A DNA stretch of 32,000 nucleotides from Candidatus Saccharimonadota bacterium (GCF_025273655.1 NZ_CP045921.1:570001-602000); one strand, 5' to 3'. Positions 16,260 to 32,000 are shown, counted from the stretch's first letter. A program made the numbers and translations. Notes: a model not told the origin generated them from the letters alone.

Positions 16260-16754
16260 ATGGAAAGTAACGTTCACCTTTTGCCTACTAAACTTGTGGG
16301 TGAAAAATTATCCGTCGACAGAGTGACTCATATTGCCGAAGACGCCAAAGTCAGTTTTTTGCTTCTACATCCTGAGTTTGAAAAGCAAGCACAAATCATT
16401 GTTGACGAGATGCTAGCCGCCAAGGAGGCTTTTGGAGAATATACAGATAATGAGCTTCGAGAAGAAACAACTGAAGCCCTAGAGGAGCTGCTCCATGGAA
16501 AGTCTGCCATCCCCCATGAAGAACTTTTACCCTCGAATCAAGTCTCTCATGCGCTTTCGCGTGTTGCTCTTTACGATGCTTCCCTGTTGTCACGCGAGGA
16601 CACCGTTTTACACTATCCGTTTCTGCAATCAGAACGTGCCACGATATATAAGGATCGAGAGTTCCAAGATTTATACGATACTATTCTCACCGATCTCAGC
16701 GATATAATCAACGATATACGTACGCACGGCGGATATCCTGCAGTCAGCTTATAG
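16260..16754 (+). CDS. Hypothetical acidic protein, 164 aa
   Basis: ORF directly behind the near-consensus promoter. No family recognised. Confidence 0.7.
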   Translation: MESNVHLLPTKLVGEKLSVDRVTHIAEDAKVSFLLLHPEFEKQAQIIVDEMLAAKEAFGEYTDNELREETTEALEELLHGKSAIPHEELLPSNQVSHALSRVALYDASLLSREDTVLHYPFLQSERATIYKDREFQDLYDTILTDLSDIINDIRTHGGYPAVSL

Positions 16755-19902: not shown

Positions 19903-19971
19903 ATTAGTACAAGTATAGCAGCTTCACCTCTCGTATGGAAACGTAAGGGGGTTCGGGGACAAATACCAATA

Positions 19972-21318
19972 TTACTCTGCAAACAACGCGTCAATCTCAT
20001 CCATTGTGCCACGTCGGCGATAATCGCGCACGCGTGTCACGATACGCTCGAGACTCAGTTTTTCCTCTGTCTCGGATGCCACGTCTTTGAAAGCATAGAG
20101 GTTATGCCTCAGCTCATCTTCGCCCACAAATGCCATAAACGGTACTTGTTTTTTCAGTACAGCTTTTATCTGCCTATCGAGCTTTCGGCCAGAAATATCA
20201 ACCTCGACATTGACACCTTCTGCGCGGAGCTTTCGCGCAAAACCTAGCGCACCTTCTAGTGTATCTTCACCCAGTACGACTATAGCAATGTCTGTCGTAG
20301 AGACGAACTCGGGTAATAGTTTGTGTGACTCGAGAAACAGCTGCATGGGGGTGAGACCAGGTGCCATACCGACAGTCGGTACCGGATCGACACCAAAGAG
20401 CCCGACGAGCCCGTCGTAGCGACCACCGCCGAACATCGAGCGGTTATTGTCTGGGTGCATGTCGAACACCTCGAACACCGTACCTGTGTAGTAATCCAGG
20501 CCACGCATGAGCGTGATGTCGAACGTCGCGTTTGCCACGCCTGCATCGGCTAGCAACGTGAAGAGTTCCTGTACTTCGAGTACTGCTTCACTTTCACGAA
20601 GTTCTGCAGGGAGGTCTGCCATAGACTTGGCTGTGATAAGTTTGGCGATTTTGGCTGCACCTTCACTCGCACGATCCTCGCCGAAGATATCTACTACTTG
20701 GTCACGAAAACTTTCTGCGGGAATTTTATTTTTGCGATCAAACAGCTTTACCATCAAGTGTGATTGCACTGCGTCAAGCCCCAAGTAGTCGTGCATCATA
20801 AAGTTGATAAGCTTGCGATTGTTGATACGAACAGCAAACATCTCATCGCTCGCACCAAACGCTTTGACGATCTCATAGGCCATGGCGATAATCTCCGCCT
20901 CAGCCTGCACGCCGTCGACACCAAATATATCGGTATTGAGCTGCCAAAACTCACGTTCACGACCACGCTGCGGACGCTCGTATCGCATGAAGTTGGCGAT
21001 ACTATAGAGACGCGCAGGGTATCCTAGTTCCTGACGACGAGCTGCCACCATACGGCTCACACTCGGTGTCATCTCGGGACGTATTGCCACTGTACGATCG
21101 CCACGATCGGTGAATGTGTAGGTTTGCTCGGTTGCAAGCTCTTGACCACTTTTTGCAGTATAAATCTCGAGTGGCTCGAGCACCGGCGCAGCATACTCTT
21201 CGTAACCATGCTGCTGTGCCACTTTGCGCCACATGTCGAAGATGTAGTTGCGCACACGCATATCTTCTGGATAGTAGTCTCGCGTACCTTTGTACGGCTG
21301 GGTACTGAGTGAACTCAT
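19972..21318 (-). CDS. hisS: Histidine--tRNA ligase
   Basis: 448 aa with KGTRDYYPEDM, class II motif 2 FMRYERPQRGREREFWQ and GGGRYDGL. Confidence 0.95.
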   Translation of the reverse strand: MSSLSTQPYKGTRDYYPEDMRVRNYIFDMWRKVAQQHGYEEYAAPVLEPLEIYTAKSGQELATEQTYTFTDRGDRTVAIRPEMTPSVSRMVAARRQELGYPARLYSIANFMRYERPQRGREREFWQLNTDIFGVDGVQAEAEIIAMAYEIVKAFGASDEMFAVRINNRKLINFMMHDYLGLDAVQSHLMVKLFDRKNKIPAESFRDQVVDIFGEDRASEGAAKIAKLITAKSMADLPAELRESEAVLEVQELFTLLADAGVANATFDITLMRGLDYYTGTVFEVFDMHPDNNRSMFGGGRYDGLVGLFGVDPVPTVGMAPGLTPMQLFLESHKLLPEFVSTTDIAIVVLGEDTLEGALGFARKLRAEGVNVEVDISGRKLDRQIKAVLKKQVPFMAFVGEDELRHNLYAFKDVASETEEKLSLERIVTRVRDYRRRGTMDEIDALFAE

Positions 21319-21380
21319 AATGTTGTAATCCTATCATCTTTATCTGTTATTTGCAAGGGTAAGCGACTTGTCATCTGTAC

Positions 21381-21406
21381 AAAAAACGCCGAAGCGAGTT
21401 CGGCGT
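21381..21406 (-). terminator. Intrinsic terminator inside the hisS leader (candidate attenuator)
   Basis: Stem ACGCCGAA/TTCGGCGT, loop CTCGC, followed on the minus strand by TTTTTT. Lies 62 nt upstream of the hisS ATG. Confidence 0.7.
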
Positions 21407-21432
21407 AGATTCGTTATTTGGACATAAGAGAG

Positions 21433-21486
21433 CTAGCCGACTTGCTCCGGCGACAGATGCAGATGATGGATAGTTCGATAAATCAT
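21433..21486 (-). CDS. Candidate 17-codon His-rich leader peptide (MIYRTIHHLHLSPEQVG)
   Basis: Hand-translated. The ATG is 6 nt downstream of TATAAT. Three CAT codons within four positions. The stop lies 26 nt before the terminator. Confidence 0.45.
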   Translation of the reverse strand: MIYRTIHHLHLSPEQVG

Positions 21487-21492
21487 ATGTAT

Positions 21493-21498
21493 ATTATA
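21493..21498 (-). promoter_or_regulatory. TATAAT box for the hisS leader transcript
   Basis: Minus strand: tttgGTAGTATAAT atacat ATG. Confidence 0.5.
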
Positions 21499-21579
21499 CT
21501 ACCAAATGACTTAAATTGCTATAGATGCTATTGCTTAGCATATTAAGCATCCCAACCAGCTAGAGAACGGCGGCTATTC

Positions 21580-21613
21580 ACAAGTAAATACCGCCTCATC
21601 ACTGAGGCGGTAT
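21580..21613 (-). terminator. Terminator after the LPXTG protein gene
   Basis: 11-bp stem ATACCGCCTCA/TGAGGCGGTAT (21588-21598 / 21603-21613), minus-strand tail TTACTTGT. Confidence 0.6.
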
Positions 21614-21636
21614 CATGTGGATCACGTGTGGAGTGA

Positions 21637-22911
21637 CTAGAACAATCGGCGGCTAGCAGCGTAGTAATACGCGCTGAGGCTCATGGCAGCCAGGCCAACA
21701 CCTGCACCGAGCAAGTCACCGGTACCGGTCTTTGGCAGCTCTACTGGAGCTGGCGTAGGCTGGACACAGTCAGGGCTGTTCTTTGGCAAATGCTCTTTGC
21801 CCGGGATAGGACATTTCTCTTCGCAATCTTTCAGATTGGTAGAGTATTTGCTGCTGTCAAACTGATCTTTATTGATTGTGATGACTTTTTTGGTTGCAAG
21901 TTCACATACTACGAGTTTTTCTGGTGGTGGAGTTGGGATCTCGAAGCTTTGTTTACATGCCTCGCTGGTGGCGGTCACTTCTTTGCCGTTTGCAGTAAAT
22001 GTCACTGTTGCTTGGACAGAATATTTGCCGGGAGCCGAAGCCGTGTATGTCGCAGTATTTGGCGAGCCCGCTACCGTCGTGCTGCCGCTAGGGCCAGTCA
22101 CCATGTAACTCACGCTTTTGAATGTGGCGTTGGTAGCGCTATAGGTTGTCTGGAACTGATACTGATTGTCGCCCTGCTTGGTGACGCTCAGGCCAGTACA
22201 TGCGTAGACAGGCACAACTTCTTTACAGTCTTCGAGGTTTTTACTGTGCAGCTGCGGGTTGAACTGATCTTCTTTGATAGTGATGATCTTTTTAGTCGCA
22301 AGTTCACATACCTTGATATCTGGCACTGGTGGCTTTGGTGGCACTGGTGGTGGCACTGGTTTTGCATATACAGGGTTACCGCATGCTTTGATGATGGCGT
22401 TTTTGAAATTGCCGTCTTTGTCGAGCACGACCAAAGTTGCCAGAGATGCGTTTGGATTCGCAAATGCTTGACCACCGACATGTGACGTCTGGTAGTAGCG
22501 CTCACCATTGATAGAAATCGGGCTGCTATGCGCAATAGCCTGGCGACCGACACTAGCCGCGTTTGTTGCAACTACACGACCGTTGGCGATCACTTCACCC
22601 TTGTTATTTGACGTACCATTGATCACTTGATCACCGGCCGCGAGATTTGGCTTGATCCAATAGTGATTGTAGATAGCTTGCAAATCACCACAAGTGTTTG
22701 CATTGTAATTACGCGTCACATCACCGTAGTTCTGGATGCCGCTTGGAACGATGTTATTCGTCTGGGCGTTACACGGACTCGCCGCATCGGCCGCAGTCTG
22801 GTTGAATTGATAAAAGCCGACGCCTGTCAGCATGACCGCCAACACGAACACAGCCGAGACGATTGCCTTGCTACTTCGTGCATAACGAAATGTATTGATT
22901 ATACCTTGCAT
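21637..22911 (-). CDS. LPXTG-anchored cell-surface protein with an internal repeated module
   Basis: N-terminal signal/TM segment, proline-rich linkers, and C-terminal LPKTG + hydrophobic stretch + RR tail. Start set at ATG 22911 (GAGGTG 5 nt upstream); the track start is a GTG inside the SD. Confidence 0.85.
   Translation of the reverse strand: MQGIINTFRYARSSKAIVSAVFVLAVMLTGVGFYQFNQTAADAASPCNAQTNNIVPSGIQNYGDVTRNYNANTCGDLQAIYNHYWIKPNLAAGDQVINGTSNNKGEVIANGRVVATNAASVGRQAIAHSSPISINGERYYQTSHVGGQAFANPNASLATLVVLDKDGNFKNAIIKACGNPVYAKPVPPPVPPKPPVPDIKVCELATKKIITIKEDQFNPQLHSKNLEDCKEVVPVYACTGLSVTKQGDNQYQFQTTYSATNATFKSVSYMVTGPSGSTTVAGSPNTATYTASAPGKYSVQATVTFTANGKEVTATSEACKQSFEIPTPPPEKLVVCELATKKVITINKDQFDSSKYSTNLKDCEEKCPIPGKEHLPKNSPDCVQPTPAPVELPKTGTGDLLGAGVGLAAMSLSAYYYAASRRLF
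21817..21912 (-). repeat. Intragenic repeat copy 2 (VVCELATKKVITINKDQFDSSKYSTNLKDCEE)
   Basis: Direct protein- and DNA-level similarity to 22219-22314. Confidence 0.8.
22219..22314 (-). repeat. Intragenic repeat copy 1 (KVCELATKKIITIKEDQFNPQLHSKNLEDCKE)
   Basis: Direct protein- and DNA-level similarity to 21817-21912. Confidence 0.8.
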
Positions 22912-22946
22912 GTTACACCTCACTCCACATTAGGTTAACTATCTTC

Positions 22947-22975
22947 ATAGTATCACAAATTTAAGCTAATGTCAA
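22947..22975 (-). promoter_or_regulatory. Promoter TTGACA-17-(TGa)TACTAT for the LPXTG gene
   Basis: TTGACA at 22970-22975, TACTAT at 22947-22952 preceded by TGA. An SD-containing leader of about 35 nt follows. Confidence 0.65.
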
Positions 22976-23008
22976 TAGACATAAGCTAGTTCCCTTATGA
23001 CACCCCTG

Positions 23009-23608
23009 TTATTTTTTCAAAAGAATATGTCTTTCAACCCACTTGTACATGAGTATACCAGACGCCACCCCTACATTAATAGACCTAGTGCTACCAAATT
23101 GCGGAATCGCGACAATCATATTAGCTCGCTGAAGCATTTCCTCTGAAATACCGGGACCTTCGCCTCCAAATACCAATACCGCGTCTTTCGGCATGTCAAC
23201 AGTATCGAGCGACTGTGAGCTTTCGACATTGTCCACCGCTACGATCGTGCGACCCCTGATGGCTACGACAAAGTCTTCTACTGTCGCATGGTACACCACT
23301 TCTAGATATGCATCTGTTTTCATAGCGCCGCGCTTGTTCCACTGCCTGCGGCCAATCACATGCACTCGCCGTACGTTGAACGCGTTTGCATTACGCACGA
23401 TTGTGCCCATGTTGTAGTCACGCTCGAGATTTTCCACCCCGATCTCCAGACCTCCACTACCTGCCTGCATGTCCTCGCGGATTGCCTCGATTGTCCAATA
23501 GCGATATTTATCGGCGACATTGCGTCCGTCCCCATGCGCGAGCAACTCTCGGTCGTAGCGAGGGCCGGTTGGCCAAGGCCTAGGATGGGGGGCAGTGCCG
23601 TTTGTCAT
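23009..23608 (-). CDS. SpoU/TrmH-family RNA 2'-O-methyltransferase
   Basis: RNANAFNV, LVFGGEGPGISEEML and IPQFGSTRSINVGVASGILMY motifs of the SPOUT class. Confidence 0.85.
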   Translation of the reverse strand: MTNGTAPHPRPWPTGPRYDRELLAHGDGRNVADKYRYWTIEAIREDMQAGSGGLEIGVENLERDYNMGTIVRNANAFNVRRVHVIGRRQWNKRGAMKTDAYLEVVYHATVEDFVVAIRGRTIVAVDNVESSQSLDTVDMPKDAVLVFGGEGPGISEEMLQRANMIVAIPQFGSTRSINVGVASGILMYKWVERHILLKK

Positions 23609-23657
23609 GACTCTATACTACCAAATTTACCCGTCCACTCTGCTATACTGGATAAGC

Positions 23658-24158
23658 ATGGCGCATACCAAACGCAAAAAAACACCAGTCAAAAACATCA
23701 TCGAGTTCATCAAACTCCAGCTCGCTGGCAACATCCTTTTCGTAGGGACACTGCTTGGCGTAGCAGTGGCCGATCACATACTCTATGTCGATCCTTTTTG
23801 GGGTATGGTGGGCGGCAGCCTCATTGCCCATATACTCTTTTTCCTGGTCAACAAAAACTGGATTTTTCACACGTCATCCAAGCGCGGGTATGGTGAAGTT
23901 GCACGTTTTATTGTCTTCATGTCGTTTAATTTCTTCCTGAATATTTTCCTCGTTAGTCTACTTACTCAGCTCATACTCATTCAGATGCCATCGGTCGAAG
24001 GCTTCGAATACTACCTGGGCGTCGTCTCAGCGGCAGTATTTTTTGCAATATGGTCGTACATAGGGCTGAAGTTTTGGGTGTTTGCTCCTACTAAGCGCCA
24101 TGCCGCCGTCAGTAGGCATCATGGCCTCACATATGAACGAAAGCGAGGCCGGGCATGA
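23658..24158 (+). CDS. GtrA-family membrane protein
   Basis: Four-TM GtrA-like layout (FIKLQLAGNILF..., WIFH..., FWVF). Start set at ATG 23658, with TGcTATACT 8 nt upstream. Confidence 0.8.
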   Translation: MAHTKRKKTPVKNIIEFIKLQLAGNILFVGTLLGVAVADHILYVDPFWGMVGGSLIAHILFFLVNKNWIFHTSSKRGYGEVARFIVFMSFNFFLNIFLVSLLTQLILIQMPSVEGFEYYLGVVSAAVFFAIWSYIGLKFWVFAPTKRHAAVSRHHGLTYERKRGRA

Positions 24159-24601
24159 TCGGATTCAATCATGCGCTGTCGGGTGCACTCGTAGCGATCC
24201 TCACCCCACCAGAATACGTCATGTATGTACCGCTTATTGCGTTTATATTGCACTTCGTACTTGATACGTTTCCACACTATGGCCGCGACGATACCGCACC
24301 AGTGCATTCTCGTAAGTTCAACCGCATTCTTACAGTTGACGCTACTTTGTGCATTACTTTTATCGCGTTAGCCTGCTGGCTATACCCCGACAAGATACTA
24401 CTGATTGCCGTAGGTGCGTTTTTTGCCATGTTACCAGACTTTCTCTGGATTTTTCACTACTACATCAAGGTCAGTTGGAAGCCGGCGCAGCTTTTCTTCA
24501 AATTCGCCGAAAACATTCAATGGGGTGAACGACCTTGGGGTTGGTCGCTGGAGATCCTCTACGCGATGGTCATGCTGGCAGTACTTGTGGGGTTGAGTTA
24601 A
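24155..24601 (+). CDS. Membrane protein, 148 aa (possibly YdjM/DUF457-like; weak)
   Basis: Multi-TM ORF with His-containing N-terminal motifs (FNHALSG, HFVLDTFPHYG). ATG overlaps the GtrA stop as ATGA. Confidence 0.7.
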   Translation: MIGFNHALSGALVAILTPPEYVMYVPLIAFILHFVLDTFPHYGRDDTAPVHSRKFNRILTVDATLCITFIALACWLYPDKILLIAVGAFFAMLPDFLWIFHYYIKVSWKPAQLFFKFAENIQWGERPWGWSLEILYAMVMLAVLVGLS

Positions 24602-24698
24602 ATTCACTCAATATAAGTAGAGCCCCGCTAGCGAGAACTCTACCTATCCGGACAGGTCGCTGCAGGGCTTAAACATTCGTCTCTCGACGAAATAGCGC

Positions 24699-25136
24699 TT
24701 AGAAGACTACCACCTTTGCATTATTCCCGCCGCTACAGATTACCGCAGCACGCTTTTCGTCGCCACTGATGGTGACGAAAGAGCCAGGCTCGCAGTGCAT
24801 CTCATATGTCTGCTGAGTTACAGGACTATACGCAGACACCGTGACAATCTCTTGTCGCAGAGGTCTTCCATATGCTTCACTGACGCGGATTGCGAACGGA
24901 CATGATGTCATGGAAGTAGCGATGCCCGAGACTCCGTTGCAGACCACGAACGTATTACCGCCCGGCTCGACACCAGCATGCAGCTGTACATCCTGATGCT
25001 CGGCGGATGTTGAGGCGGTGGTGTCCGTGACAGTCGCCGTCACTGTCGTGGTAACGCCGGAGTCACCATAACAAGCCGTCGCTGAAAGTGCAATTACAGC
25101 CAACGCCGCCGTTATCATAACCCTACTCGTGTACAT
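24699..25136 (-). CDS. Secreted protein or lipoprotein candidate, 145 aa
   Basis: Signal peptide ending ALSATAC. AAGGAG 6 nt upstream of the ATG. Confidence 0.7.
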   Translation of the reverse strand: MYTSRVMITAALAVIALSATACYGDSGVTTTVTATVTDTTASTSAEHQDVQLHAGVEPGGNTFVVCNGVSGIATSMTSCPFAIRVSEAYGRPLRQEIVTVSAYSPVTQQTYEMHCEPGSFVTISGDEKRAAVICSGGNNAKVVVF

Positions 25137-25220
25137 AAGGACTCCTTGCCCTCGGTTGGTTCCTCTTCTAACATGACTATATTAACATATAAATAATAAT
25201 TTGCAATAAAGGGGCCCCGG

Positions 25221-25250
25221 CACAATATAAAACCCCGGCCTGGAGCCGGG
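25221..25250 (-). terminator. Terminator downstream of tRNA-Leu(CAG)
   Basis: Stem CCCGGC/GCCGGG (25234-25239 / 25245-25250), minus-strand tail GTTTTATATT. Confidence 0.6.
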
Positions 25251-25259
25251 ATGTTATAT

Positions 25260-25346
25260 TGGTACAGATGAGAGGACTTGAACCTCCACGTCCCGAAGGA
25301 CACTAGCACCTGAAGCTAGCGCGTCTACCAATTCCGCCACATCTGC
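25260..25346 (-). tRNA. tRNA-Leu (anticodon CAG), type II, CCA encoded
   Basis: 87 nt: GCAGATGTGGCGGAATTGGTAGACGCGCTAGCTTCAGGTGCTAGTGTCCTTCGGGACGTGGAGGTTCAAGTCCTCTCATCTGTACCA. Long variable arm, close to E. coli tRNA-Leu(CAG), with a G1-U72 wobble. Confidence 0.95.
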
Positions 25347-25436
25347 GTATAAGTTGGATGCAATGTACTATGTGAGTTTTGTGTCATCCTAGGACTTAAG
25401 CGCTGCGTGTCTACAATTAGCTTGCGCTTCACACAG

Positions 25437-25451
25437 CCGCCACATCTGCGT
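25437..25451 (-). repeat. Exact 15-nt copy of the tRNA-Leu(CAG) 5' end (ACGCAGATGTGGCGG), 103 nt upstream of the tRNA
   Basis: Identical to 25334-25348. Followed by degenerate tRNA-like sequence AATTGTAGACACGCAGCGCTTAAGTCC. Confidence 0.85.
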
Positions 25452-25462
25452 GCGACCCTCCA

Positions 25463-25491
25463 ACTATACTTGATTTGAGGGGATTTTTCAA
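25463..25491 (-). promoter_or_regulatory. Promoter TTGAAA-17-TATAGT driving the tRNA-Leu(CAG) leader
   Basis: TTGAAA at 25486-25491, TATAGT at 25463-25468. The upstream repeat copy starts 11 nt after the -10. Confidence 0.55.
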
Positions 25492-25513
25492 GGAAGGTGT
25501 ACTGCTGTATATC

Positions 25514-27166
25514 CTAGCTAGTGCTGGAGAAGTCTGCGAAGTCGATACCATCGTACCCAGTACGTAGATGAGCAACAACACTCCGCAGTTCTGTTGGCTC
25601 TTTGACGCCAGCATTGAGCGTAGTATACGGATCAAACACTGCACGCAGTGAGCTGAACATATCCGCCAAGCGCGAATCACTACGCTTGTCGATAAACGGC
25701 GTCTTGAGGCGACCCTCACCCGCCTCAGCTACCACAGAGCCACCGTGATCATACACTACTTTAGTAAACGCGTCATATAGCTTGAAAAGTTTTTGTTTGT
25801 CGGTAGCTCCACGAAATGTAAATTGTGGCCAAAAGCTATAGACACCATCTGTTGCAAAACCGCTATATGGCAGGTGGATACCAGTAGTCTTTTCGAGCAG
25901 AGCGAGGGCATCATGGAATTCGGCAAACCGATCATGAGGTATATAGACACCACGAAACAGCGAGGGTACGACGCCTGCTTTTTCTTCGGAATAAACGGCA
26001 GAATACACCACACCGCGGAGGCTTACAAGTTCACGGACCAAATCGGGTTTCTCGGCTGTTTCCATGACAGCACCGTATTTCTCAACTAGCTTCTTGATCT
26101 TCTTTAGTTTCTTTTTGCGGACACGGTCGCTAAAATCCTGGATTGTACAAAGTATCAAACCTGCGACGACACTTGGAGAACCAGATTCGCCGTCGAGCTG
26201 CGCAAAGATAGAATATTTCTTGCCATGTTCTCGTGCAAGTGTGGCGAGTGGACCGTCAAACACCTCGATAGCATCCGGCTCGACAGCGCGCAGTTCATCC
26301 ACCAAGTCGACAAAGTTATTGGCGTCTGGCACAGCGATAGTCGCCACGGATGTTTCAGCGTTGTAAAACTCAGCTTTCAGAATCATCTCGGATATGACAC
26401 CGAGTGTGCCCTGTGCACCGACAAAAAGCGGCGTCAGGTCAAACGAACCATTTTTTTGTTTGACCTTGGCAAGGTTAGCATAGCCGACATTATTGATCGC
26501 GCCGGTATTAAGCTGCTCGTCGATCAGTTCTGTATTGTCTTCGATGAGATTGTCGATACTACGGTAGATCTCACCCTCAAGTGTCTGAAGACCTTTTTTC
26601 TTGCCCAGCTCTTTCTTGCTGAGACGCTTCGTTTGGATCACGTCGCCATTTGTAAGTACAACTTCCAGCTCGGCGACGCTTTCATCTATCGCCCCGTGTC
26701 GACCACTTAAGCGACCACTGGCGTTATTGGCCACTGCGCCACCGATCGTGCTGTACTCATATGAGTCTGGAAATGCCGGAACATGATAGCCCTGGAGTTT
26801 CAACGCTGTCTGCAATGCACCGAAATTAGCACCCGGCTGCACACGCACGAGGCGCTGTTTACTGTCAAATTCAAAGATTTGATTCATATGTGCCGTGGTA
26901 TTGACCACGATACCCTGGGTGATAGCCGCCCCAGTCTGATCTGTACCACTGCCGCGTGCCGTCACACTGATAGCATGACCTTTGCCCGCCAGCTGGTGAG
27001 TGAAGCGTAGTACCTTGCGAATGTCGTTGGTAACTCTGGGGTATGCGACGATTTCTGGCGTGAGTGTGAGCATGCTTGCGTCTGTAGAGAGCTCGCGTCG
27101 CACGGCCGCGTTCGTCGTCACCTCGCCAAGTAGGTGCTCGTTCAGGTACTGGGAAATCTTACTCAT
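25514..27166 (-). CDS. FAD-linked oxidase/dehydrogenase (GlcD / D-lactate dehydrogenase family)
   Basis: 550 aa with an N-terminal FAD-binding PCMH-type region (RGSGTDQTGAAI) and a C-terminal FAD-oxidase domain. AAGAGGA SD. Confidence 0.9.
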   Translation of the reverse strand: MSKISQYLNEHLLGEVTTNAAVRRELSTDASMLTLTPEIVAYPRVTNDIRKVLRFTHQLAGKGHAISVTARGSGTDQTGAAITQGIVVNTTAHMNQIFEFDSKQRLVRVQPGANFGALQTALKLQGYHVPAFPDSYEYSTIGGAVANNASGRLSGRHGAIDESVAELEVVLTNGDVIQTKRLSKKELGKKKGLQTLEGEIYRSIDNLIEDNTELIDEQLNTGAINNVGYANLAKVKQKNGSFDLTPLFVGAQGTLGVISEMILKAEFYNAETSVATIAVPDANNFVDLVDELRAVEPDAIEVFDGPLATLAREHGKKYSIFAQLDGESGSPSVVAGLILCTIQDFSDRVRKKKLKKIKKLVEKYGAVMETAEKPDLVRELVSLRGVVYSAVYSEEKAGVVPSLFRGVYIPHDRFAEFHDALALLEKTTGIHLPYSGFATDGVYSFWPQFTFRGATDKQKLFKLYDAFTKVVYDHGGSVVAEAGEGRLKTPFIDKRSDSRLADMFSSLRAVFDPYTTLNAGVKEPTELRSVVAHLRTGYDGIDFADFSSTS

Positions 27167-27266
27167 CTACCATCCTCTTTTTCTAAGCTTTACCTCTATG
27201 ATACCATACCTGTCGAGCCACAAGGTCCATTTTGCATATGACTAGAGCTATGATAGTATAAATAGG

Positions 27267-27283
27267 CTACGCGGATGTGGTGG
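27267..27283 (+). repeat. Exact 17-nt copy of the tRNA-Leu(UAG) 5' end (CTACGCGGATGTGGTGG), 101 nt upstream of the tRNA-like sequence
   Basis: Identical to 27368-27384. Preceded by a TAGTAT/TATAAA -10-like box at 27254-27262. Confidence 0.85.
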
Positions 27284-27371
27284 CTGCGTAAAACGTAAAT
27301 CATGAGTAGGCACGCTGCGTGTCGAATATGATTGCCTAGATTGCGTACACCCTAATCGTACAAAACACTAC

Positions 27372-27413
27372 GCGGATGTGGTGGAATTGGTAGACACGCT
27401 AGCCTTAGGAGCT
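27372..27413 (+). pseudogene. tRNA-Leu (anticodon UAG), 5' half only, truncated after the anticodon loop
   Basis: GCGGATGTGGTGGAATTGGTAGACACGCTAGCCTTAGGAGCT matches the tRNA-Leu acceptor, D-arm and anticodon loop (TAG at 27406-27408). No variable arm, T-arm or 3' acceptor follows. Confidence 0.6.
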
Positions 27414-27461
27414 TGCGAGTAAAACCATCTTTAATTTTGAAATAACAGGGGTAAAACCCAT

Positions 27462-27499
27462 AAAAATAGGAGTACATTTTGCGATGTACTCCTATTTTT
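27462..27499. terminator. Bidirectional intrinsic terminator (AAAAA-stem-loop-stem-TTTTT)
   Basis: 11-bp stem TAGGAGTACAT/ATGTACTCCTA (27467-27477 / 27484-27494) flanked by A5 and T5. Lies just downstream of the integrase stop. Confidence 0.75.
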
Positions 27500-27545
27500 G
27501 ACTCCTACGGTATCACAGTGCCACAGGGTACGGCACATATTGCGG

Positions 27546-28661
27546 CTAGCTATACACCCCTGCGATCTCGGTAATCGCCATACTGCGTTGCTGTTCTGTG
27601 CTATGCGTGTACACCTGAAGTGTCGTTGTGATCGACTTGTGCCCAAGGATATTCTGTGCTGTCTTTGGTGATATTCCCCTCTGGTGCAATAGTGTCGTAA
27701 CTGTGTGGCGTATTTCATGGAGTGTGATGCGTGGCAGTTCAAGCCAGTCGGATATCTTATGAAAGAGCTGGATAAGAGTGCGTCCATCGACGGGGTTGCC
27801 CCTTCCGCTGAGATACAAGAACTCATGTGCCGCAGGATCGCCACGTCTCTCGCGCTCAGCAAGTAACTCATCACGTACGACGCGCGGCATCGCAAGGACA
27901 CGCCGACTCTCGAGCGTTTTTAGCTCGCCAACGTGTTGTATATGCCCAACATAATATACCTGTTGGCGAATACGGATGAGGTCATTATCAAAGTCTACAT
28001 CACCCCAAGTTAGCCCTGTTGCTTCACCTCGCCGTAAGCCAAAACAGAAGAATATGAGAAACAGTCCGTAGTAGCGGTGCTCCTCAATCGCAGTAAGAAA
28101 TATCCGTGCTTGCTCGGCCGTCCATACATGACGTTGCCTTGTCACGTGCTTTGGCGGGTCGACAAGGCGCACCACGTTACGATGTACGTACTCAAGCTTC
28201 ATCGCATCACGTAACGCAGCTGAGAGGACGTTACGCGCAATCTGCTGGCTTCTTGTTCCCATACCTTTCCTATCCCACGCAACGAGCATGCGACGTACAT
28301 GGTCGGGCTTAAGCCCTATCAGCGACACTTTGCCAATTTCAGGTATGATATTCTTATCGACATGACACCGATGAAGCTCAAGAGTACTGTCTTTGACATT
28401 CCGTGGGTGGATTTCAGTTATCCAGTAATTGAGCCAATCTTCGACCGAGCGTCGTTCATGGCTTAGCGCAAGACCCTTGTCTGCTTTTGCCATTTCATCG
28501 CGCATTCGTCGCATTACTTCATCTCTATCTTTCAGCGTAATATGCTGACGTCTTCGTTCGCCGCTTGGCAAGGTTATATAGAACCTTGCCATCCAGCGCC
28601 CGTCCGGTCTTTGGGTGAGGGAACCCTCACCGTTCCCTCGTTTATATGATCTAGTAGCCAT
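27546..28661 (-). CDS. int: Tyrosine-type site-specific recombinase (integrase)
   Basis: 371 aa with an N-terminal SAM-like domain and a catalytic region carrying LRRGE (Arg), HEIRHTV (HxxR) and GHKSITTTLQVYTH (Tyr). GAGGTGAGAGG SD. Confidence 0.93.
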   Translation of the reverse strand: MATRSYKRGNGEGSLTQRPDGRWMARFYITLPSGERRRQHITLKDRDEVMRRMRDEMAKADKGLALSHERRSVEDWLNYWITEIHPRNVKDSTLELHRCHVDKNIIPEIGKVSLIGLKPDHVRRMLVAWDRKGMGTRSQQIARNVLSAALRDAMKLEYVHRNVVRLVDPPKHVTRQRHVWTAEQARIFLTAIEEHRYYGLFLIFFCFGLRRGEATGLTWGDVDFDNDLIRIRQQVYYVGHIQHVGELKTLESRRVLAMPRVVRDELLAERERRGDPAAHEFLYLSGRGNPVDGRTLIQLFHKISDWLELPRITLHEIRHTVTTLLHQRGISPKTAQNILGHKSITTTLQVYTHSTEQQRSMAITEIAGVYS

Positions 28662-28947
28662 AGTTGCCTCTCACCTCGCTTTCTTCCTCTAGCTTTATGA
28701 TGTACTCCTCAAGGGCGTGTACGCTTATGAGCCTACGATTGCCAATCTTTACGCTCTTTATGGCATTCGAGCGTAGTAGCTGGAAAAGCATCCAGTCACC
28801 GATGCCTAGTATTTCTTTTGCCTCTTTTAGGCTCAGAAGTTGCATCTTCAGCTGGTGTCTCCCGTTCGCAGCACTTACATTAACGCTTCCTTTGCTATCG
28901 AAGTCCAGTGGATAATGGGAGTCGTTTCGGGAGTCGTTTTTATTCAT
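28651..28947 (-). CDS. xis: Excisionase-family (MerR-like) helix-turn-helix DNA-binding protein
   Basis: LLSLKEAKEILGIGDWMLFQLLRSNAIKSVKIGNRRLISVHALEEYI matches the HTH_17/excisionase pattern. GGAGGT 5 nt upstream. Overlaps int by 11 nt. Confidence 0.75.
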   Translation of the reverse strand: MNKNDSRNDSHYPLDFDSKGSVNVSAANGRHQLKMQLLSLKEAKEILGIGDWMLFQLLRSNAIKSVKIGNRRLISVHALEEYIIKLEEESEVRGNYGY

Positions 28948-29821
28948 AGGTTACCTCCGTTAGTTTGCCTAGTTTACCCTCAGCCACAAGGCTCGGCAGT
29001 TCCTGTGGTGTTATGACAATGAATGGCTGTCCAACCGCGAAATCGGGGAAATTCTCGGCAATATGGCGTTTGAGGGATTCCCGACGCTTTATGGTCGGAA
29101 CGACCCACAGAACCGCTGGAAACTGCCCACAGCACCATCCATCTTGGCTATCCTGCGTACAGATCAGGTAGTCGAGGTACATGTTGCACTTGGCAATGAT
29201 GCGAACGGGTGCCTCTGTGTTGCAGTCCACCTCGATGAACCAGTGGTGTTCTAGCTGCCCACGAGTGGTAACAGCGTACATATCTGGTCTGAGACTGGTA
29301 GCGACACCGGCACGGTTGGTATAGTAGCGCCAACTTTTCTCCTCGATCACCGCATCCTTAAGCTGCACTTGCTCATGCTTGTCGGCAATGTGCTTCAGGA
29401 TGAGCTTGGTGTCGTTGATCGCCATACGGTGTGCCGCAAAGGTAAAGGTCGGAGCCTTGAACGGCTTCTTGGATTCGTTGGTTTCGATACGCCTGAGTTT
29501 TTCAAGTGTATCGTGACCAAGCTTCGCAAGATGCCAGATGTTTGGCTCTGCGCCGTGGTAGACGCCACCGACCCGTCCAGGCTGCAAGGCGATGAGATTC
29601 ATGCCATGCAGCTTATTCAGCCGCAAGGTGACATTCCGTACACTCGACTTAAATAGTCTGGTTGGTGTATGGATGAACTTGGCAACTTGCTGGGTTGAGA
29701 GGAACTTGTGTTCGGCAAGGAGGTGGAGCAAGAGAACTTCTTTGCCATCAAGGGCAATCCGCTTCTTACCAATCTTGACGATTGTTCCTGCTGGGTAGTT
29801 GTCTGGGATTAGCGTGTCCAT
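28940..29821 (-). CDS. Replication-relaxation family protein
   Basis: N-terminal winged-helix-like segment (LLHLLAEHKFLSTQQVAKFI ... RLNKL), LRPDMYAV, and FIEVDCNTE with IIAKCNMYLDY. This layout is typical of Replic_Relax proteins. AGGAGGTG SD. Confidence 0.65.
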   Translation of the reverse strand: MDTLIPDNYPAGTIVKIGKKRIALDGKEVLLLHLLAEHKFLSTQQVAKFIHTPTRLFKSSVRNVTLRLNKLHGMNLIALQPGRVGGVYHGAEPNIWHLAKLGHDTLEKLRRIETNESKKPFKAPTFTFAAHRMAINDTKLILKHIADKHEQVQLKDAVIEEKSWRYYTNRAGVATSLRPDMYAVTTRGQLEHHWFIEVDCNTEAPVRIIAKCNMYLDYLICTQDSQDGWCCGQFPAVLWVVPTIKRRESLKRHIAENFPDFAVGQPFIVITPQELPSLVAEGKLGKLTEVTYE

Positions 29822-32000
29822 GATGCACCTCCTGCTGCCGCGCCAGTGGATTGACGTACCTCGTTAAGAGGTACAGTCAGCTGGCTCTTGGGGTGACGTT
29901 CGGAGGTTGTTGACCCCTTAGCACCACTAGTGGAATGATTGGTGGTTCGATAGTCCTCCATGACGGTTCTGAGCAGCCTCATGCCCTTATCCAAAGCGGC
30001 AGTATCCTTGGCGTTTTTGGCAGGCTGTGGATGGGCTGCCGGTTCAGGCGTCTGAGCTAGCACATTCGTGATGGTTGCTTTCTTGACGACGCTCGCAATG
30101 TCGTCATTAATACCAACCGACTGACGAATAGCCTCATCGATCTGCTCCGCTGGGCGACCGTAGATGCCAAGGCTGAATCGCTTGAATTTCTCAACGTTAT
30201 TAATGACCTTTGGTGCAGGATTCGTCGTGGCACTGAGCCAGACCTTTTGCCCTACGCAGAGTGTTTGCACGTACACCTGATGCCGCGGCAGATACTTGAA
30301 GTCGTCTGCCGATAGGATGCCCGTCATGTTGGCAATCGTGCGTGCGTCTGGGTCGTTGAGCGTAAATACCACTTTGTTGGCAACGTTGGAATCAATACCA
30401 GCTAGCAACTCTTTATCCCTAACCTGATCGCGGTACTGGTGTGCTAGCGTAAAGCCGACCTTGTAACTCCTCGCTTGGCTGAGTGCGTCAGATATGTTGA
30501 TCGGTAGTGCAAGATAGTCCTGCATCTCATCGACATATACCTTGACCACTGGTCGTTGGTTTTCTGGAATCGCACCTTGTCCTTGTGTGAGCGACCAAAC
30601 CTGCGACAGGATGAGCGAGCCGAGGAACCGTGCACTGGTATTGCCGAGCTTGGCTTTGTTGAGCGATACCAGCACTATCTTGTTCTTCGTAAATAGATCG
30701 CTCAAGTTAAAGTTCGGCTCTGGTTGTCCAACGGTGCGTAGGAGCGGCTTTCGCGTCAGCACCGTACGAAGCTTGTTCATCAGCGGTGCCGTGATCTCTT
30801 GCTGCTTGTTGGGCGTGAGCGCCTCGTACTGTTTCCAGAATGAGCCAAGTCCCATTGGATCGTCTCTGCTCACTTCCTCAACCAGCTTCTTGCGAAACGT
30901 TGGGTTATACAGCAGGGCTGGTAGCATCGATAGCGTGACGTCGTTGGTCGTCCGCATCAGGGTGAGCAGTGCGTTGGACAATATATCCTCGGTTCGCTGC
31001 CCCCACGAACTGGCGAATATCTCCCGTAGTACTGCAAGCATGGCATCGGCTGCAAGGTCGGGATCTCCACCACCGGCCAGTGAATTAATACTCACGATAT
31101 TATCTGCCGTCGGGTCAATATACACCACGTCCTTAGCTCGCTTCGGGTTCATGCGAGCTAAGATATCCGAGTTCAGGTCGTCTTTCGGGTCAATCACCAG
31201 CACACCGCGATTCTCATCGATGTCGTTTAAGATCATGTTGAGCATGGTGGTGCTTTTACCGACACCAGTTGGTCCGAGTAGGAGCGTGTGCTGTAACGAT
31301 GCCTGCTCCGAGATACCGAGGGGTATCTTTTTGCTTGGATCGTTCGTCACCGCAAAGCTCTTCTCGGATGCTGGCATCAGGGACGGTGTCCGTAGCACAA
31401 TCGGGTGCAGCGGTGGCACCGCAGGCAGGTTCTCCTCGCCATACGGGATTCCCATCAGGCAGGATACCTCTTGGCTAGACAGCATATGCGTCCACTTGCG
31501 TGGTCGGGTCAGGTTTTGCAACTGTTCGATGCAATCCTTGCCACGCAGTCGAATACTCGCTCCGTGGGCTTCCATCATGGCAAGTCCACTGCGAACTTGC
31601 TCGAGTAACCACCAGCCACGAATGGTGTCTGGTGCAACGGCTCCGATGCGAACTTCCGTAAAGAAGCCGTGCATGTTGTGCCGTCGTTGCAGCCCAGCAT
31701 GAATGTCTGCTGCCATCGGGATGACGCCCCCGATAAAAACAGATGCACCGCTTTGGCGTGGGTCACGCAGTGTCTTTGGTACCGTGTATGGCACAGTACG
31801 CTTGCCGAGCATGACCTGTAGCACAAGCCCCTCACCACCACGGACATTTGCCATTGCAGTGAGGATGCTACGGGTGATTTGGCTAATACGGTCAGGGTTC
31901 AATGCCATATCTGGGTGTCCCATCTCGACCGAGTCGGCTACCATGAGTCGTGGTCGCAAAGGTTTGGTGTCTTTCGGCAGGATACGGCTTAAGGTCGTTC
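29809..32000 (-). CDS. Conjugative DNA-transfer ATPase, type IV coupling protein-like (VirD4/TraD/TraG family); probably 5'-truncated by the window
   Basis: Walker A GPTGVGKST and Walker B VVKVYVDEMQDY. The track start is TTG 31959, but the frame is open to position 32000 and neither TTG 31959 nor ATG 31944 has an SD. Confidence 0.8.
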   Translation of the reverse strand, partial: TTLSRILPKDTKPLRPRLMVADSVEMGHPDMALNPDRISQITRSILTAMANVRGGEGLVLQVMLGKRTVPYTVPKTLRDPRQSGASVFIGGVIPMAADIHAGLQRRHNMHGFFTEVRIGAVAPDTIRGWWLLEQVRSGLAMMEAHGASIRLRGKDCIEQLQNLTRPRKWTHMLSSQEVSCLMGIPYGEENLPAVPPLHPIVLRTPSLMPASEKSFAVTNDPSKKIPLGISEQASLQHTLLLGPTGVGKSTTMLNMILNDIDENRGVLVIDPKDDLNSDILARMNPKRAKDVVYIDPTADNIVSINSLAGGGDPDLAADAMLAVLREIFASSWGQRTEDILSNALLTLMRTTNDVTLSMLPALLYNPTFRKKLVEEVSRDDPMGLGSFWKQYEALTPNKQQEITAPLMNKLRTVLTRKPLLRTVGQPEPNFNLSDLFTKNKIVLVSLNKAKLGNTSARFLGSLILSQVWSLTQGQGAIPENQRPVVKVYVDEMQDYLALPINISDALSQARSYKVGFTLAHQYRDQVRDKELLAGIDSNVANKVVFTLNDPDARTIANMTGILSADDFKYLPRHQVYVQTLCVGQKVWLSATTNPAPKVINNVEKFKRFSLGIYGRPAEQIDEAIRQSVGINDDIASVVKKATITNVLAQTPEPAAHPQPAKNAKDTAALDKGMRLLRTVMEDYRTTNHSTSGAKGSTTSERHPKSQLTVPLNEVRQSTGAAAGGASWTR

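What the first reader, a model, noticed from the sequence alone, without database searches (positions are those of the whole stretch)
27414..32000. Integrated mobilizable/conjugative element whose translation signals contrast with the host genes
Seen: four minus-strand genes overlap by 8-13 nt. In transcription order they are a VirD4/TraD-like ATPase (Walker A GPTGVGKST, Walker B VYVDEMQDY; N-terminus beyond the window), a replication-relaxation protein, an excisionase-type HTH and a tyrosine integrase. A bidirectional terminator follows next to the split tRNA. Each of the three starts visible in the window has a strong SD (AGGAGGTG, GGAGGT, GAGGTGAGAGG), whereas about a third of chromosomal genes here appear leaderless. 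Established: the combination int + xis + Replic_Relax + coupling-protein-like ATPase is characteristic of integrative mobilizable/conjugative elements of Gram-positive bacteria, as I recall notably Actinobacteria and Firmicutes. Inference: this is a relatively recent acquisition from an SD-using donor. If the host is an epibiotic reduced-genome lineage living on Actinobacteria, it would be a candidate host-to-epibiont transfer. Cargo and any further transfer genes lie outside the window.
Basis: partly seen in the sequence, partly recalled or inferred. Interest (0 to 1): 0.65.

Follow-up and report, generated by a model that had tools for sequence, protein, structure and literature searches.

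The report
Mobilizable defence-carrying island in a Saccharibacteria genome
A mobile DNA element sits inside a leucine tRNA gene of a tiny Saccharibacteria genome; it carries its own integration and DNA-transfer genes plus swappable anti-phage cargo, and near-identical copies in unrelated genomes of the same lineage show it moved recently, not from the actinobacterial host.

Summary
Four overlapping minus-strand genes encode a tyrosine integrase, an excisionase-type HTH, a Replic_Relax (MOB_C-type) protein and a TrwB/VirD4-like ATPase. They abut a hairpin terminator and the 5' half of a tRNA-Leu(UAG) gene cut in its anticodon loop.

Extending the contig and finding relatives shows a family of integrative mobilizable elements in Saccharibacteria. 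The backbone is orf164, orf166, MT-A70 methylase, ATPase, relaxase, xis and int. The cargo is variable defence genes (MmeI-type or type III restriction-modification, an RloC-like tRNase and others).

Near-identical copies (98-100% protein identity; 99.7% DNA identity in a second pair) lie at the same tRNA in genomes whose flanks are unrelated. One relative shows the tRNA 3' half at the far end. This indicates recent site-specific mobility.

The donor inference is not supported:
- GC and GC3 match the chromosome.
- Relatives with 52-98% ATPase identity form one family; every member with a taxon label is Saccharibacteria.
- The best named Actinobacteria hit is 42% identical, though syntenic.
- The three visible SD-led starts are operon-internal; host operon-internal genes also have SDs.

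Still open: the source's own far end, a functional tRNA-Leu(UAG) copy, and the transfer route.

The parts
27372..27413 (+). Host side of attL: the 5' half of the tRNA-Leu(UAG) gene (acceptor GCGGATG, D arm, anticodon stem CTAGC, loop CTTAGGA). It ends in the shared core CTTAGGAGC (27404-27412).
   Evidence: Read directly. Bases 27369-27403 are 91% identical to tRNA-Leu(CAG). Rfam tRNA scores 22.9 bits, below threshold, and ARAGORN finds nothing. The same junction GGAGC(T)|element occurs in L088, L095/96 and L099/100. The upstream tRNA part varies with the host (acceptor GCGCGAG in L095; stem TATGC in L100), so it is host DNA. The Logan k=31 contig L002 stops exactly 30 nt into this half (27384), as expected for a branch point at 27413/27414 (the branch-point reading is my inference).
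27414..27545 (.). Int-proximal arm of the element (element side of attL). It holds the bidirectional hairpin terminator 27462-27499 and a conserved motif AACAGGGGTA (reverse complement TACCCCTGTTA), which is a candidate arm-type integrase binding site.
   Evidence: Terminator found. The arm is 100% identical in L088 and L002 and conserved in L095. Related motifs lie near the core in L093, L097 and L158: CACCCCCGTTA in L093/L097 and ACCCCTGTTA in L158. The binding-site role is inferred.
27546..28661 (-). Tyrosine integrase, 371 aa.
   Evidence: PF00589, E = 9.6e-24, plus an N-terminal SAM-like domain. The catalytic strings GLRRGE, HEIRHT, LGH and VYTH are visible in the translation. It is 100% identical in L088 and L002, 90% in L095, and 57-60% to three other integrase types that use the same tRNA.
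28651..28947 (-). Excisionase-type HTH protein (probable recombination directionality factor), 98 aa.
   Evidence: PF12728 HTH_17, 28.8 bits. TIGR01764 'excise' domain, 27.2 bits, just under its cut-off. It lies between the relaxase and the integrase in every family member.
28940..29821 (-). Replic_Relax protein, 293 aa: the putative MOB_C-type relaxase.
   Evidence: PF13814, 90 bits. PF13814 is listed as the MobC relaxase superfamily in PMC5357655 Table 1. A family alignment keeps an N-terminal HTH-like block RFLTTxQ, an invariant H131 and invariant P179-D180 (in L[KR]PD), and a nearly invariant E197 (in FxE[VI]D) and E203 (in TE). I read this as a PD-(D/E)XK-like pattern. There is no PDB homologue by sequence and no PLSDB plasmid hit.
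29809..32000 (-). C-terminal 730 aa of an 810-aa TrwB/VirD4-like P-loop ATPase (coupling-protein-like). The start lies 241 nt past the window end.
   Evidence: PF02534 and PF10412. Full length from L001/L091. The profile hits DotL and TrwB in the PDB. The AlphaFold model has pLDDT 85, and its C-terminal ~430 aa match TrwB with TM 0.60-0.64 on the target. No hydrophobic segment is long enough for a membrane anchor (maximum Kyte-Doolittle score 1.44).

Best explanation
Window 27414-32000 is the integrase-proximal third of a roughly 20 kb or larger integrative mobilizable element resident in Saccharibacteria (class Saccharimonadia).

Shown:
- The conserved backbone, in order, is two small paralogous ORFs (164 and 166 aa), about 1 kb of non-coding DNA, an MT-A70 DNA methyltransferase, a soluble TrwB-like ATPase, a Replic_Relax (MOB_C) protein, an excisionase-type HTH and a tyrosine integrase.
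- Beyond the small ORFs lies an exchangeable defence cargo.
- The element is inserted in the anticodon loop of tRNA-Leu(UAG), with the shared core CTTAGGAGC.
- Near-identical copies occupy the same tRNA in genomes with unrelated flanks, so the element has moved recently.

Inferred mechanism:
- Int and the HTH protein excise the element as a circle by recombination across the core.
- The MOB_C protein cuts an oriT that has not been identified.
- The ATPase hands the DNA to a mating channel the element does not encode. The most likely channel is the chromosomal monoderm-type T4SS that Patescibacteria carry.
- MT-A70 methylates the element's or the host's DNA against restriction.
- In the recipient, Int integrates the circle into the tRNA-Leu(UAG) anticodon loop. 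In this element type that splits the gene without rebuilding it on the integrase side.
For: Gene content and order.

The host is Saccharibacteria:
- The window's ribosomal protein S12 falls in a 90%-identity cluster with 'Candidatus Saccharimonas sp.' and 'Candidatus Saccharibacteria bacterium' proteins.
- The Replic_Relax 90% cluster includes a 'Candidatus Microsaccharimonas sp.' protein.
- Locus L008 is a GTDB Saccharibacteria MAG.

Recent mobility:
- L088 carries the element at 96% nucleotide identity and 98-100% protein identity. The adjacent FAD oxidase is only 44% identical and the other flanking genes differ. Identity stops at the 5' end of the tRNA half.
- L099 and L100 share 99.7% identity over 14.9 kb. 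Their flanks are unrelated and the host tRNA 5' halves differ.

Far end: L097 ends with element arm + CTTAGGAGC + tRNA-Leu 3' half.

Variable defence cargo and mosaicism:
- Cargo seen includes MmeI-type IIG RM + DEAD helicase + T5orf172, type III RM, a TaqI_C-domain protein + resolvase, YobI ATPase, Dcm + NgoFVII + Z1, an RloC-like AAA_13 protein (PDC-S06), and Mrr-nSTAND (PDC-S73).
- Cargo genes are 95-99.7% identical between elements whose backbones are 61-85% identical.

Not a phage: there are no relatives in IMG/VR.

ATPase fold.

Literature:
- Patescibacteria carry a chromosomal monoderm-type T4SS, thousands of orphan VirD4-like genes and few relaxases. MOBC is the commonest relaxase class, and 39 relaxase genes lie next to a t4cp (PMC12102498).
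- No paper describing this element family turned up.
Against: - The far end and attR of the source copy itself were not reached. The one far end seen belongs to a relative (L097) whose integrase end I could not read.
- I found no empty site, no attP junction and no circular contig, so excision is not shown.
- No T4SS gene was examined in this genome.
- The ATPase lacks the membrane anchor of canonical coupling proteins.
- No oriT was identified.
- Relaxase activity of the Replic_Relax protein rests on family assignment only. The single-sequence structure model failed (pLDDT 35).
- The element appears to destroy a tRNA the host needs, since CUA is 9.5% of Leu codons. This is unexplained.
Confidence: 0.72

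Rival explanations
1. One reading: the element was acquired recently from an SD-using Gram-positive donor, possibly the actinobacterial host on which the epibiont lives.
For: The nearest named homologues outside the family are Actinobacteria: Acidithrix at 42%, Arthrobacter at 34-36%, and Embleya/Streptomyces at about 31-34% over half the protein. Acidithrix has the syntenic MT-A70, ATPase and Replic_Relax genes with a recombinase and an RM cargo. A 41% relative (L116) lies 1.8 kb from an intact, GC-rich tRNA-Leu(UAG). The element's operon-first genes use SDs, whereas many host first genes are leaderless.
Against: Identity to any named Actinobacteria protein is 42% or less, while a graded 52-98% series exists whose taxon-labelled members are all Saccharibacteria. 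GC and GC3 equal those of the host. The in-window SD 'contrast' is an effect of operon position. The recent transfers that can be documented are between backgrounds that share the FAD oxidase / tRNA-Leu(UAG) neighbourhood.
Confidence: 0.06
2. The element transfers, but not through a T4SS. Either the single ATPase pumps double-stranded DNA, as the FtsK-like TraB of actinomycete integrative and conjugative elements (AICEs) does, or excised circles are simply taken up by natural competence and Replic_Relax acts as a replication initiator.
For: The ATPase has no membrane anchor, and its fold matches HerA and VirB4 as well as TrwB. The related modules are in Actinobacteria. The Pfam family is named 'replication-relaxation'. 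The PMC12102498 authors suspect that orphan T4CPs in Patescibacteria may have been exapted and that the T4SS is not conjugative.
Against: There is no FtsK_SpoIIIE domain and no Rep or primase-type replication gene in the backbone. The best local structural match is the coupling protein TrwB (TM 0.62 on the target). The ATPase-MOB_C pairing is the classical relaxosome pairing.
Confidence: 0.15
3. A domesticated, no longer mobile defence island inherited vertically at a conserved position.
For: The position is the same (tRNA-Leu(UAG) beside a FAD oxidase) in the source, L088, L095, L099, L100 and L158. Base composition is chromosome-like. Defence cargo dominates.
Against: The element is 96-99.7% identical at the DNA level while the flanks have no detectable DNA similarity and the neighbouring FAD oxidase is 40-47% identical. 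All backbone genes are intact and overlapping. At least four integrase types and many cargo sets occur on one backbone.
Confidence: 0.05
4. A prophage remnant or a phage-dependent satellite.
For: It has integrase + excisionase next to a tRNA, and a T5orf172 domain protein in the cargo.
Against: No capsid, terminase, portal or primase genes occur in about 23 kb of two relatives. There are no relatives in IMG/VR. A relaxase and a coupling-type ATPase are present.
Confidence: 0.02

Closest known systems
Integrative mobilizable elements of Firmicutes with a Rel_PF13814/MobC relaxase (IME classes of streptococci; PMC5357655)
   Same: They have a site-specific recombinase, a PF13814 relaxase and sometimes a coupling protein, with no mating-pore genes. 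They are integrated at a specific site and hitch on a resident T4SS.
   Different: Here the host is a Patescibacterium. The backbone also always holds an MT-A70 methylase and two small paralogous ORFs. The ATPase is soluble and has a ~300-aa N-terminal domain. The cargo is anti-phage defence. Integration cuts a tRNA gene in the anticodon loop.
MOB_C relaxases (TraX of pAD1, MobC of CloDF13), which I recall are restriction-endonuclease-like relaxases
   Same: Pfam PF13814 membership and a conserved PD ... ExD ... E pattern.
   Different: There is no detectable similarity to any PLSDB plasmid protein at E = 1e-6. Activity and oriT are unknown.
Orphan VirD4-like T4CP and MOBC genes catalogued in Patescibacteria (PMC12102498)
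   Same: This is most likely the same gene class: a T4CP far from virB4, next to a MOBC relaxase, in a genome type that has a chromosomal monoderm-type T4SS.
   Different: That survey counted genes. It did not describe the element, its att site, its backbone, its cargo or evidence of recent movement. [quoted passage not shown]
Actinobacterial islands with MT-A70, ATPase and Replic_Relax (for example Acidithrix ferrooxidans JXYS01000023, locus L098)
   Same: The same three-gene core in the same order, a restriction-modification cargo upstream and a recombinase downstream. Many metagenomic relatives lie near tRNA genes.
   Different: ATPase identity is 42% and Replic_Relax identity about 30%. 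A large serine recombinase replaces xis + tyrosine integrase. As far as I can tell these islands are undescribed in the literature.
Phage and island integrases that cross over in a tRNA anticodon loop (Williams 2002 classification; Haemophilus phage HP1 in a tRNA-Leu gene); recalled from memory
   Same: The 7-nt anticodon loop lies between the inverted stem arms and serves as the core. The integrase gene is next to the att site.
   Different: The classical elements carry the tRNA 3' part and rebuild the gene. Relatives L094 and L158 have an intact tRNA next to the integrase end. The source type leaves the 5' half dead-ended on the integrase side.

Membership tests
Integrative mobilizable element (IME) | Own site-specific recombinase plus a directionality factor | tested here: met
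   PF00589 integrase with catalytic R, HxxR and Y strings; HTH_17/excise-type protein immediately upstream.
Integrative mobilizable element (IME) | Own relaxase (with or without a coupling protein) | tested here: met
   PF13814 at 90 bits, assigned to MobC. The adjacent ATPase is TrwB-like. Enzymatic activity was not tested.
Integrative mobilizable element (IME) | No mating-pore (VirB4, VirB6 etc.) genes inside the element | tested here: inconclusive
   None occur in the 14.8 kb seen for the source, or in about 21 kb of L008 and about 18 kb of L097. The far part of the source copy was not seen.
Integrative mobilizable element (IME) | Bounded by att sites that share a core | tested here: inconclusive
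   attL is defined at 27413/27414 with core CTTAGGAGC. The far junction with the same core plus the tRNA 3' half was seen only in relative L097. The source far end is out of reach.
Integrative mobilizable element (IME) | Excision to a circle and transfer | not testable with these tools
   Indirect support only: near-identical copies in unrelated flanks, and contigs from several samples that break in or at the ends of the tRNA segment beside the element.
MOB_C relaxase | PF13814 domain with nuclease-like acidic motifs | tested here: met
   The alignment across 24-56% identical homologues keeps H131 and P179-D180 invariant, and E197 (in FxE[VI]D) and E203 nearly invariant.
MOB_C relaxase | Restriction-endonuclease-like fold | tested here: inconclusive
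   The single-sequence AlphaFold model has pLDDT 35 and is unusable. There is no PDB relative by profile.
Type IV coupling protein (VirD4/TrwB) | Walker A/B nucleotide-binding domain plus all-alpha domain with the TrwB fold | tested here: met
   PF02534 and PF10412. The profile hits DotL and TrwB. Foldseek matches TrwB with TM 0.60-0.64 on the target and rmsd about 6.3 A over about 425 columns.
Type IV coupling protein (VirD4/TrwB) | N-terminal transmembrane anchor | tested here: not met
   The maximum 19-residue Kyte-Doolittle mean is 1.44 (1.02-1.67 in four relatives). The N-terminal 300 aa are predicted as a folded soluble alpha/beta domain. I therefore call it coupling-protein-like, not a canonical T4CP.
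Actinomycete ICE (AICE) | FtsK/SpoIIIE-type TraB translocase and a Rep protein | tested here: not met
   No FtsK_SpoIIIE or Rep domain occurs in any backbone protein.
Prophage or phage satellite | Virion, packaging or phage replication genes; presence in viral collections | tested here: not met
   None seen in the loci examined. There are no relatives in IMG/VR.

The most novel reading that the evidence does not exclude
This family is the 'missing' relaxosome of Patescibacteria. A MOB_C relaxase and a soluble coupling ATPase would let an integrative element ride the chromosomal T4SS, which is essential for epibiosis, from one Saccharibacteria cell to another (or to and from the host bacterium). 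Candidate Phyla Radiation (CPR) bacteria would then conjugate. The element also knocks out the tRNA-Leu(UAG) gene it enters, and some variants carry a replacement copy. That would be an unusual cost-and-compensation arrangement.
Probability: 0.3. Interest if true: 0.75.

Novelty: new member of a known kind. Interest (0 to 1): 0.5.

Why it matters
Saccharibacteria and other Patescibacteria are hard to manipulate genetically, and it is debated whether their type IV secretion system moves DNA at all.

This compact element has clearly moved recently between different Saccharibacteria genomes. It has a defined att site (the anticodon loop of tRNA-Leu(UAG)) and a relaxase plus coupling-type ATPase. 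That makes the conjugation question directly testable.

It is also a natural candidate for an integrative vector. It shows how reduced-genome epibionts exchange anti-phage defence genes. Finally, it corrects the tempting reading that SD-led genes in a largely leaderless genome mark foreign DNA.

Tried and rejected
1. Walking to the source's far end.
   - The MmeI fragment search returned no self hit; the best was 57%.
   - The GTDB genome scan did not contain the source genome, but gave L008.
   - The AAA_13 search returned the L008-type representative, not the source protein. That led to L097, the far end of a relative.
   - All look-ups are now used.

2. Empty-site search. The exact FAD oxidase protein is found only on contigs that also carry the element. 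In sister genomes reached through HisRS cluster members (L159, L160), the stretch between the conserved genes and tRNA-Leu(CAG) holds different genes, and no FAD oxidase or tRNA-Leu(UAG) lies within reach.

3. My recollection that PF13814 equals MOB_L/RelLS20 was wrong. The literature assigns it to MobC.

4. The single-sequence AlphaFold model of Replic_Relax was useless, and the PDB profile search found nothing.

5. The plasmid database has no Replic_Relax match and only ATPase matches of 34% identity or less over half the protein. IMG/VR has nothing.

6. oriT search in the 1-kb spacer found no convincing repeats. Only a 28-nt hairpin block is shared with the 64% relative.

7. I considered whether the far junction in L097 rebuilds a tRNA. 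The acceptor pairs 6 of 7, but the anticodon stem does not pair, Rfam gives 18.7 bits and ARAGORN finds nothing. I rejected it as a canonical tRNA.

8. I considered a Nanoarchaeum-style functional split tRNA. Nothing supports it and I rate it very unlikely.

9. One listing of cluster members timed out.

Full report
**What is in the window.** Four overlapping minus-strand genes fill 27546-32000:
- a tyrosine integrase, 27546-28661;
- an HTH_17/excisionase-type protein, 28651-28947;
- a Replic_Relax protein, 28940-29821;
- a P-loop ATPase whose stop codon is at 29809.

The overlaps are 11, 8 and 13 nt. Pfam supports all four, and NCBIfam adds a borderline 'excise' domain hit for the HTH protein. 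Downstream of int there is a 16-pair hairpin with A and T runs on either side, at 27462-27499. Beyond it, on the plus strand at 27372-27413, lies the 5' half of a tRNA-Leu(UAG) gene that stops just after the anticodon loop (...CTAGC CTTAGGA GCT|TGCGAG...). ARAGORN and Rfam do not call it as a tRNA. Its first 35 bases (27369-27403) are 91% identical to the start of the intact tRNA-Leu(CAG) 2 kb away.

**Extending the locus.** The Replic_Relax protein occurs on a 171-kb contig that is 100% identical to window 18940-32000 (L001/L006/L091), and also on a 1.08-Mb contig. The ATPase is 810 aa. Past the window end, in order, come:
- an MT-A70 methyltransferase;
- about 1 kb without genes;
- two small paralogous ORFs (166 and 164 aa);
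- a T5orf172 protein, a DEAD helicase and a 936-aa MmeI-type IIG restriction-modification enzyme;
- on the other strand, an RloC-like AAA_13 ATPase.

The host is a Saccharibacterium. The window's ribosomal protein S12 clusters at 90% or more with 'Candidatus Saccharimonas' and 'Candidatus Saccharibacteria' proteins. A member of the Replic_Relax 90% cluster is annotated 'Candidatus Microsaccharimonas'.

**A family with a fixed backbone and changing cargo.** ATPase homologues form a graded series at 98, 96, 85, 82, 71, 69, 64 ... 52% identity, then a gap to about 43%. Every member whose context I could read (L002, L088, L093, L094, L095/96, L097/L008, L099/100, L158) has ATPase - Replic_Relax - HTH - int in that order. 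Most also have the upstream small ORF(s) and MT-A70; L094 has no MT-A70 hit. The genes beyond the small ORFs differ from member to member:
- type III restriction-modification;
- a TaqI_C-domain protein plus a resolvase;
- a YobI ATPase;
- Dcm + NgoFVII + Z1 + an SMC-like protein;
- MmeI + helicase + T5orf172;
- further out, the AAA_13 protein (PDC-S06), a NYN protein, DUF2779, Mrr-nSTAND (PDC-S73) and a Cap4-type nuclease.

Modules recombine. Between the source and L008 the cargo proteins are 95.6-99.7% identical, but the backbone is only 61-85% identical. L095 has an integrase 90% identical to the source's, joined to an ATPase only 64% identical.

**Evidence that it moves.**
- L088 carries the element at 96% DNA identity, with proteins 98-100% identical and int, HTH and MT-A70 at 100%. 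The FAD oxidase next to it is only 44% identical to the source's, and the other flanking genes are different. Identity with the source runs through the int-proximal arm and the tRNA 5' half and stops at the first base of the tRNA.
- L099 and L100 are 99.7% identical over 14.9 kb. Their flanks are unrelated and their host tRNA 5' halves differ (GACGCGCTAGC against GACACGTATGC).
- L095 has yet another acceptor stem (GCGCGAG) joined to the same junction. The 5' half is therefore host DNA. The junction lies at GGAGC(T)|, and the core common to all is the anticodon loop plus two bases, CTTAGGAGC.
- A k=31 contig from another sample (L002) stops exactly 30 nt into the 5' half. That is what a graph branch at 27413/27414 would give (my inference).
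- Contigs from several other samples also end in or at the ends of the tRNA segment beside the element.
- One relative, L097, ends with a non-coding arm, the core and the tRNA-Leu 3' half (...CTTAGGAGCACGTGCCCTCGGGCGTGAAGGTTCAAGTCCTTTCATCCGCA). This is the expected far junction.

I could not reach the far end of the source copy, and I found no empty site.

**The tRNA problem.** In the source type, the L095 type and the L099/100 type, the int-side junction leaves the 5' half dead-ended. The L097 far junction is not a credible tRNA (Rfam 18.7 bits, no ARAGORN call, anticodon stem unpaired). Yet CUA makes up 9.5% of Leu codons in the host genes of the window. Other family members behave differently:
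- L094 has an intact tRNA next to int.
- In L158 a cut 5' half is followed by about 400 nt, then a complete tRNA-Leu(UAG) with a different acceptor stem, then FUR and rhodanese genes, then int. It looks as if the element carries a replacement gene.
- L093 has the opposite orientation: its int end is joined to the 3' half at a 13-nt palindrome, GCTCCTTAGGAGC.

How the source host obtains tRNA-Leu(UAG) is unresolved. It could have a second copy, a copy in the unseen cargo, or a mixed population.

**What the proteins are.**
- PF13814 is the MobC relaxase superfamily in the IME literature (PMC5357655). My memory of MOB_L was wrong.
- An alignment of homologues down to 24% identity keeps an N-terminal HTH-like block and a nuclease-like pattern. 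H131 and P179-D180 are invariant; E197 (in FxE[VI]D) and E203 are nearly invariant.
- The ATPase model is confident (pLDDT 85). Its C-terminal ~430 residues superpose on the coupling protein TrwB (TM 0.60-0.64 on the target), with VirB4 and HerA as more distant matches. The profile finds DotL and TrwB in the PDB.
- The ATPase has no transmembrane segment, and its ~300-aa N-terminal domain is predicted to be soluble. It is therefore coupling-protein-like, not a canonical T4CP.
- There is no phage gene and no IMG/VR relative. There is no FtsK or Rep domain, so it is not an AICE.
- It has no close plasmid relative.

**Most likely mechanism.** Int and the HTH protein excise a circle across the core. 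The MOB_C protein cuts an oriT that has not been found. The ATPase delivers the DNA to a channel that the element does not encode. PMC12102498 reports that Patescibacteria carry a chromosomal monoderm-type T4SS that is essential for epibiotic growth, thousands of VirD4-like genes far from virB4, and few relaxases. MOBC is the commonest relaxase class, and 39 relaxase genes lie next to a t4cp. [quoted passage not shown] The element fits that gene class and gives it a context. All transfer steps here are inferred.

- Leaderless starts in the host belong to first-in-operon genes, with TATAAT-like hexamers 6-9 nt before the ATG. Operon-internal host genes have strong SDs. The three in-window element starts are operon-internal, so they say nothing about origin.
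- The element's own first genes do use SDs. That is a weak contrast.
- GC and GC3 match the chromosome. Tetranucleotide usage is only slightly atypical.
- The close relatives belong to one family, and every member with a taxon label is Saccharibacteria. The best named actinobacterial homologue is 42% identical. Acidithrix does have the same MT-A70 - ATPase - Replic_Relax core, with a serine recombinase and type I restriction-modification cargo. Many 30-42% relatives sit near tRNA genes.
- An old cross-phylum connection is therefore plausible. A recent host-to-epibiont transfer is not.

**Verdict.** This is a real, recently mobile integrative mobilizable element of a family that I could not find described. 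The kind is ordinary; the host lineage and its treatment of the tRNA target make it noteworthy. The main gaps are the source's attR, direct evidence of excision, the origin of tRNA-Leu(UAG) function, and the transfer route.

Noticed in passing
window 27267-27367 (+) and 25347-25455 (-); L088 about 9860-9990; L160 309-535: Upstream of both tRNA-Leu loci there is a ~100-nt unit. It starts with a copy of tRNA bases 1-13 (GCrGATGTGGyGG), followed by CTGYGTGAA...GTAGACACGCAGCG. It looks like a decayed tRNA 5' part with an insert in the D loop. A sister genome has two such units in tandem. L095 and L100 have none. It could be a remnant of earlier integrations or a tandem duplication; its function is unknown.
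   Followed up: partly
window genes 2533-3189, 3237-3770, 5192-6055, 15521-16216, 16260-16754, and the Tig, SpoU and GtrA genes (18619-24158): First-in-operon host genes are leaderless. A TATAAT-like hexamer, often with a TTGACA 17 nt upstream, ends 6-9 nt before the ATG. Operon-internal genes have SDs.
   Followed up: partly
L091 865-6814 (past the window end); more than 40 GTDB loci among L008-L087: The MmeI-type IIG enzyme, a DEAD/ResIII helicase and a T5orf172 protein form a three-gene cassette conserved in order across many phyla: Bacteroidota, Pseudomonadota, Actinomycetota, Patescibacteria and an archaeon. Only the MmeI part is a named defence gene in PADLOC.
   Followed up: partly
L158 10066-10600: A relative of the element has a cut host tRNA-Leu(UAG) 5' half, then ~400 nt, then a complete tRNA-Leu(UAG) with a different acceptor stem, plus FUR and rhodanese genes between the att site and int. 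It appears to be an element-borne replacement tRNA.
   Followed up: partly
L159 87-3400: In a sister genome (85% DNA identity to the window's chromosome) a different element, with a 271-aa Replic_Relax protein and a 575-aa serine recombinase, abuts tRNA-Leu(CAG). The two tRNA-Leu loci look like an insertion hot spot.
   Followed up: no
L093 14860-14917, compared with L097 18000-18118: The arm next to the tRNA 3' half is homologous in L093 and L097 (GAGGTGAG...ATATCACCCCCGTTA). It is beside int in L093 but at the far, cargo end in L097. The body of the element is therefore inverted between the arms in one of them. The L093 junction, GCTCCTTAGGAGC, is a 13-nt palindrome.
   Followed up: partly
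L091 7013-8250 (orf164, orf166): Two paralogous small proteins (about 31% identical to each other) always mark the border between backbone and cargo. They match no Pfam (above threshold), NCBIfam or PADLOC family.
   Followed up: no
L098 (Acidithrix ferrooxidans JXYS01000023): An actinobacterial island has the same MT-A70 - ATPase - Replic_Relax core, a large serine recombinase and type I restriction-modification cargo. JGI metagenomes hold many further relatives (ATPase identity 30-42%), often 3-6 kb from a tRNA gene.
   Followed up: partly
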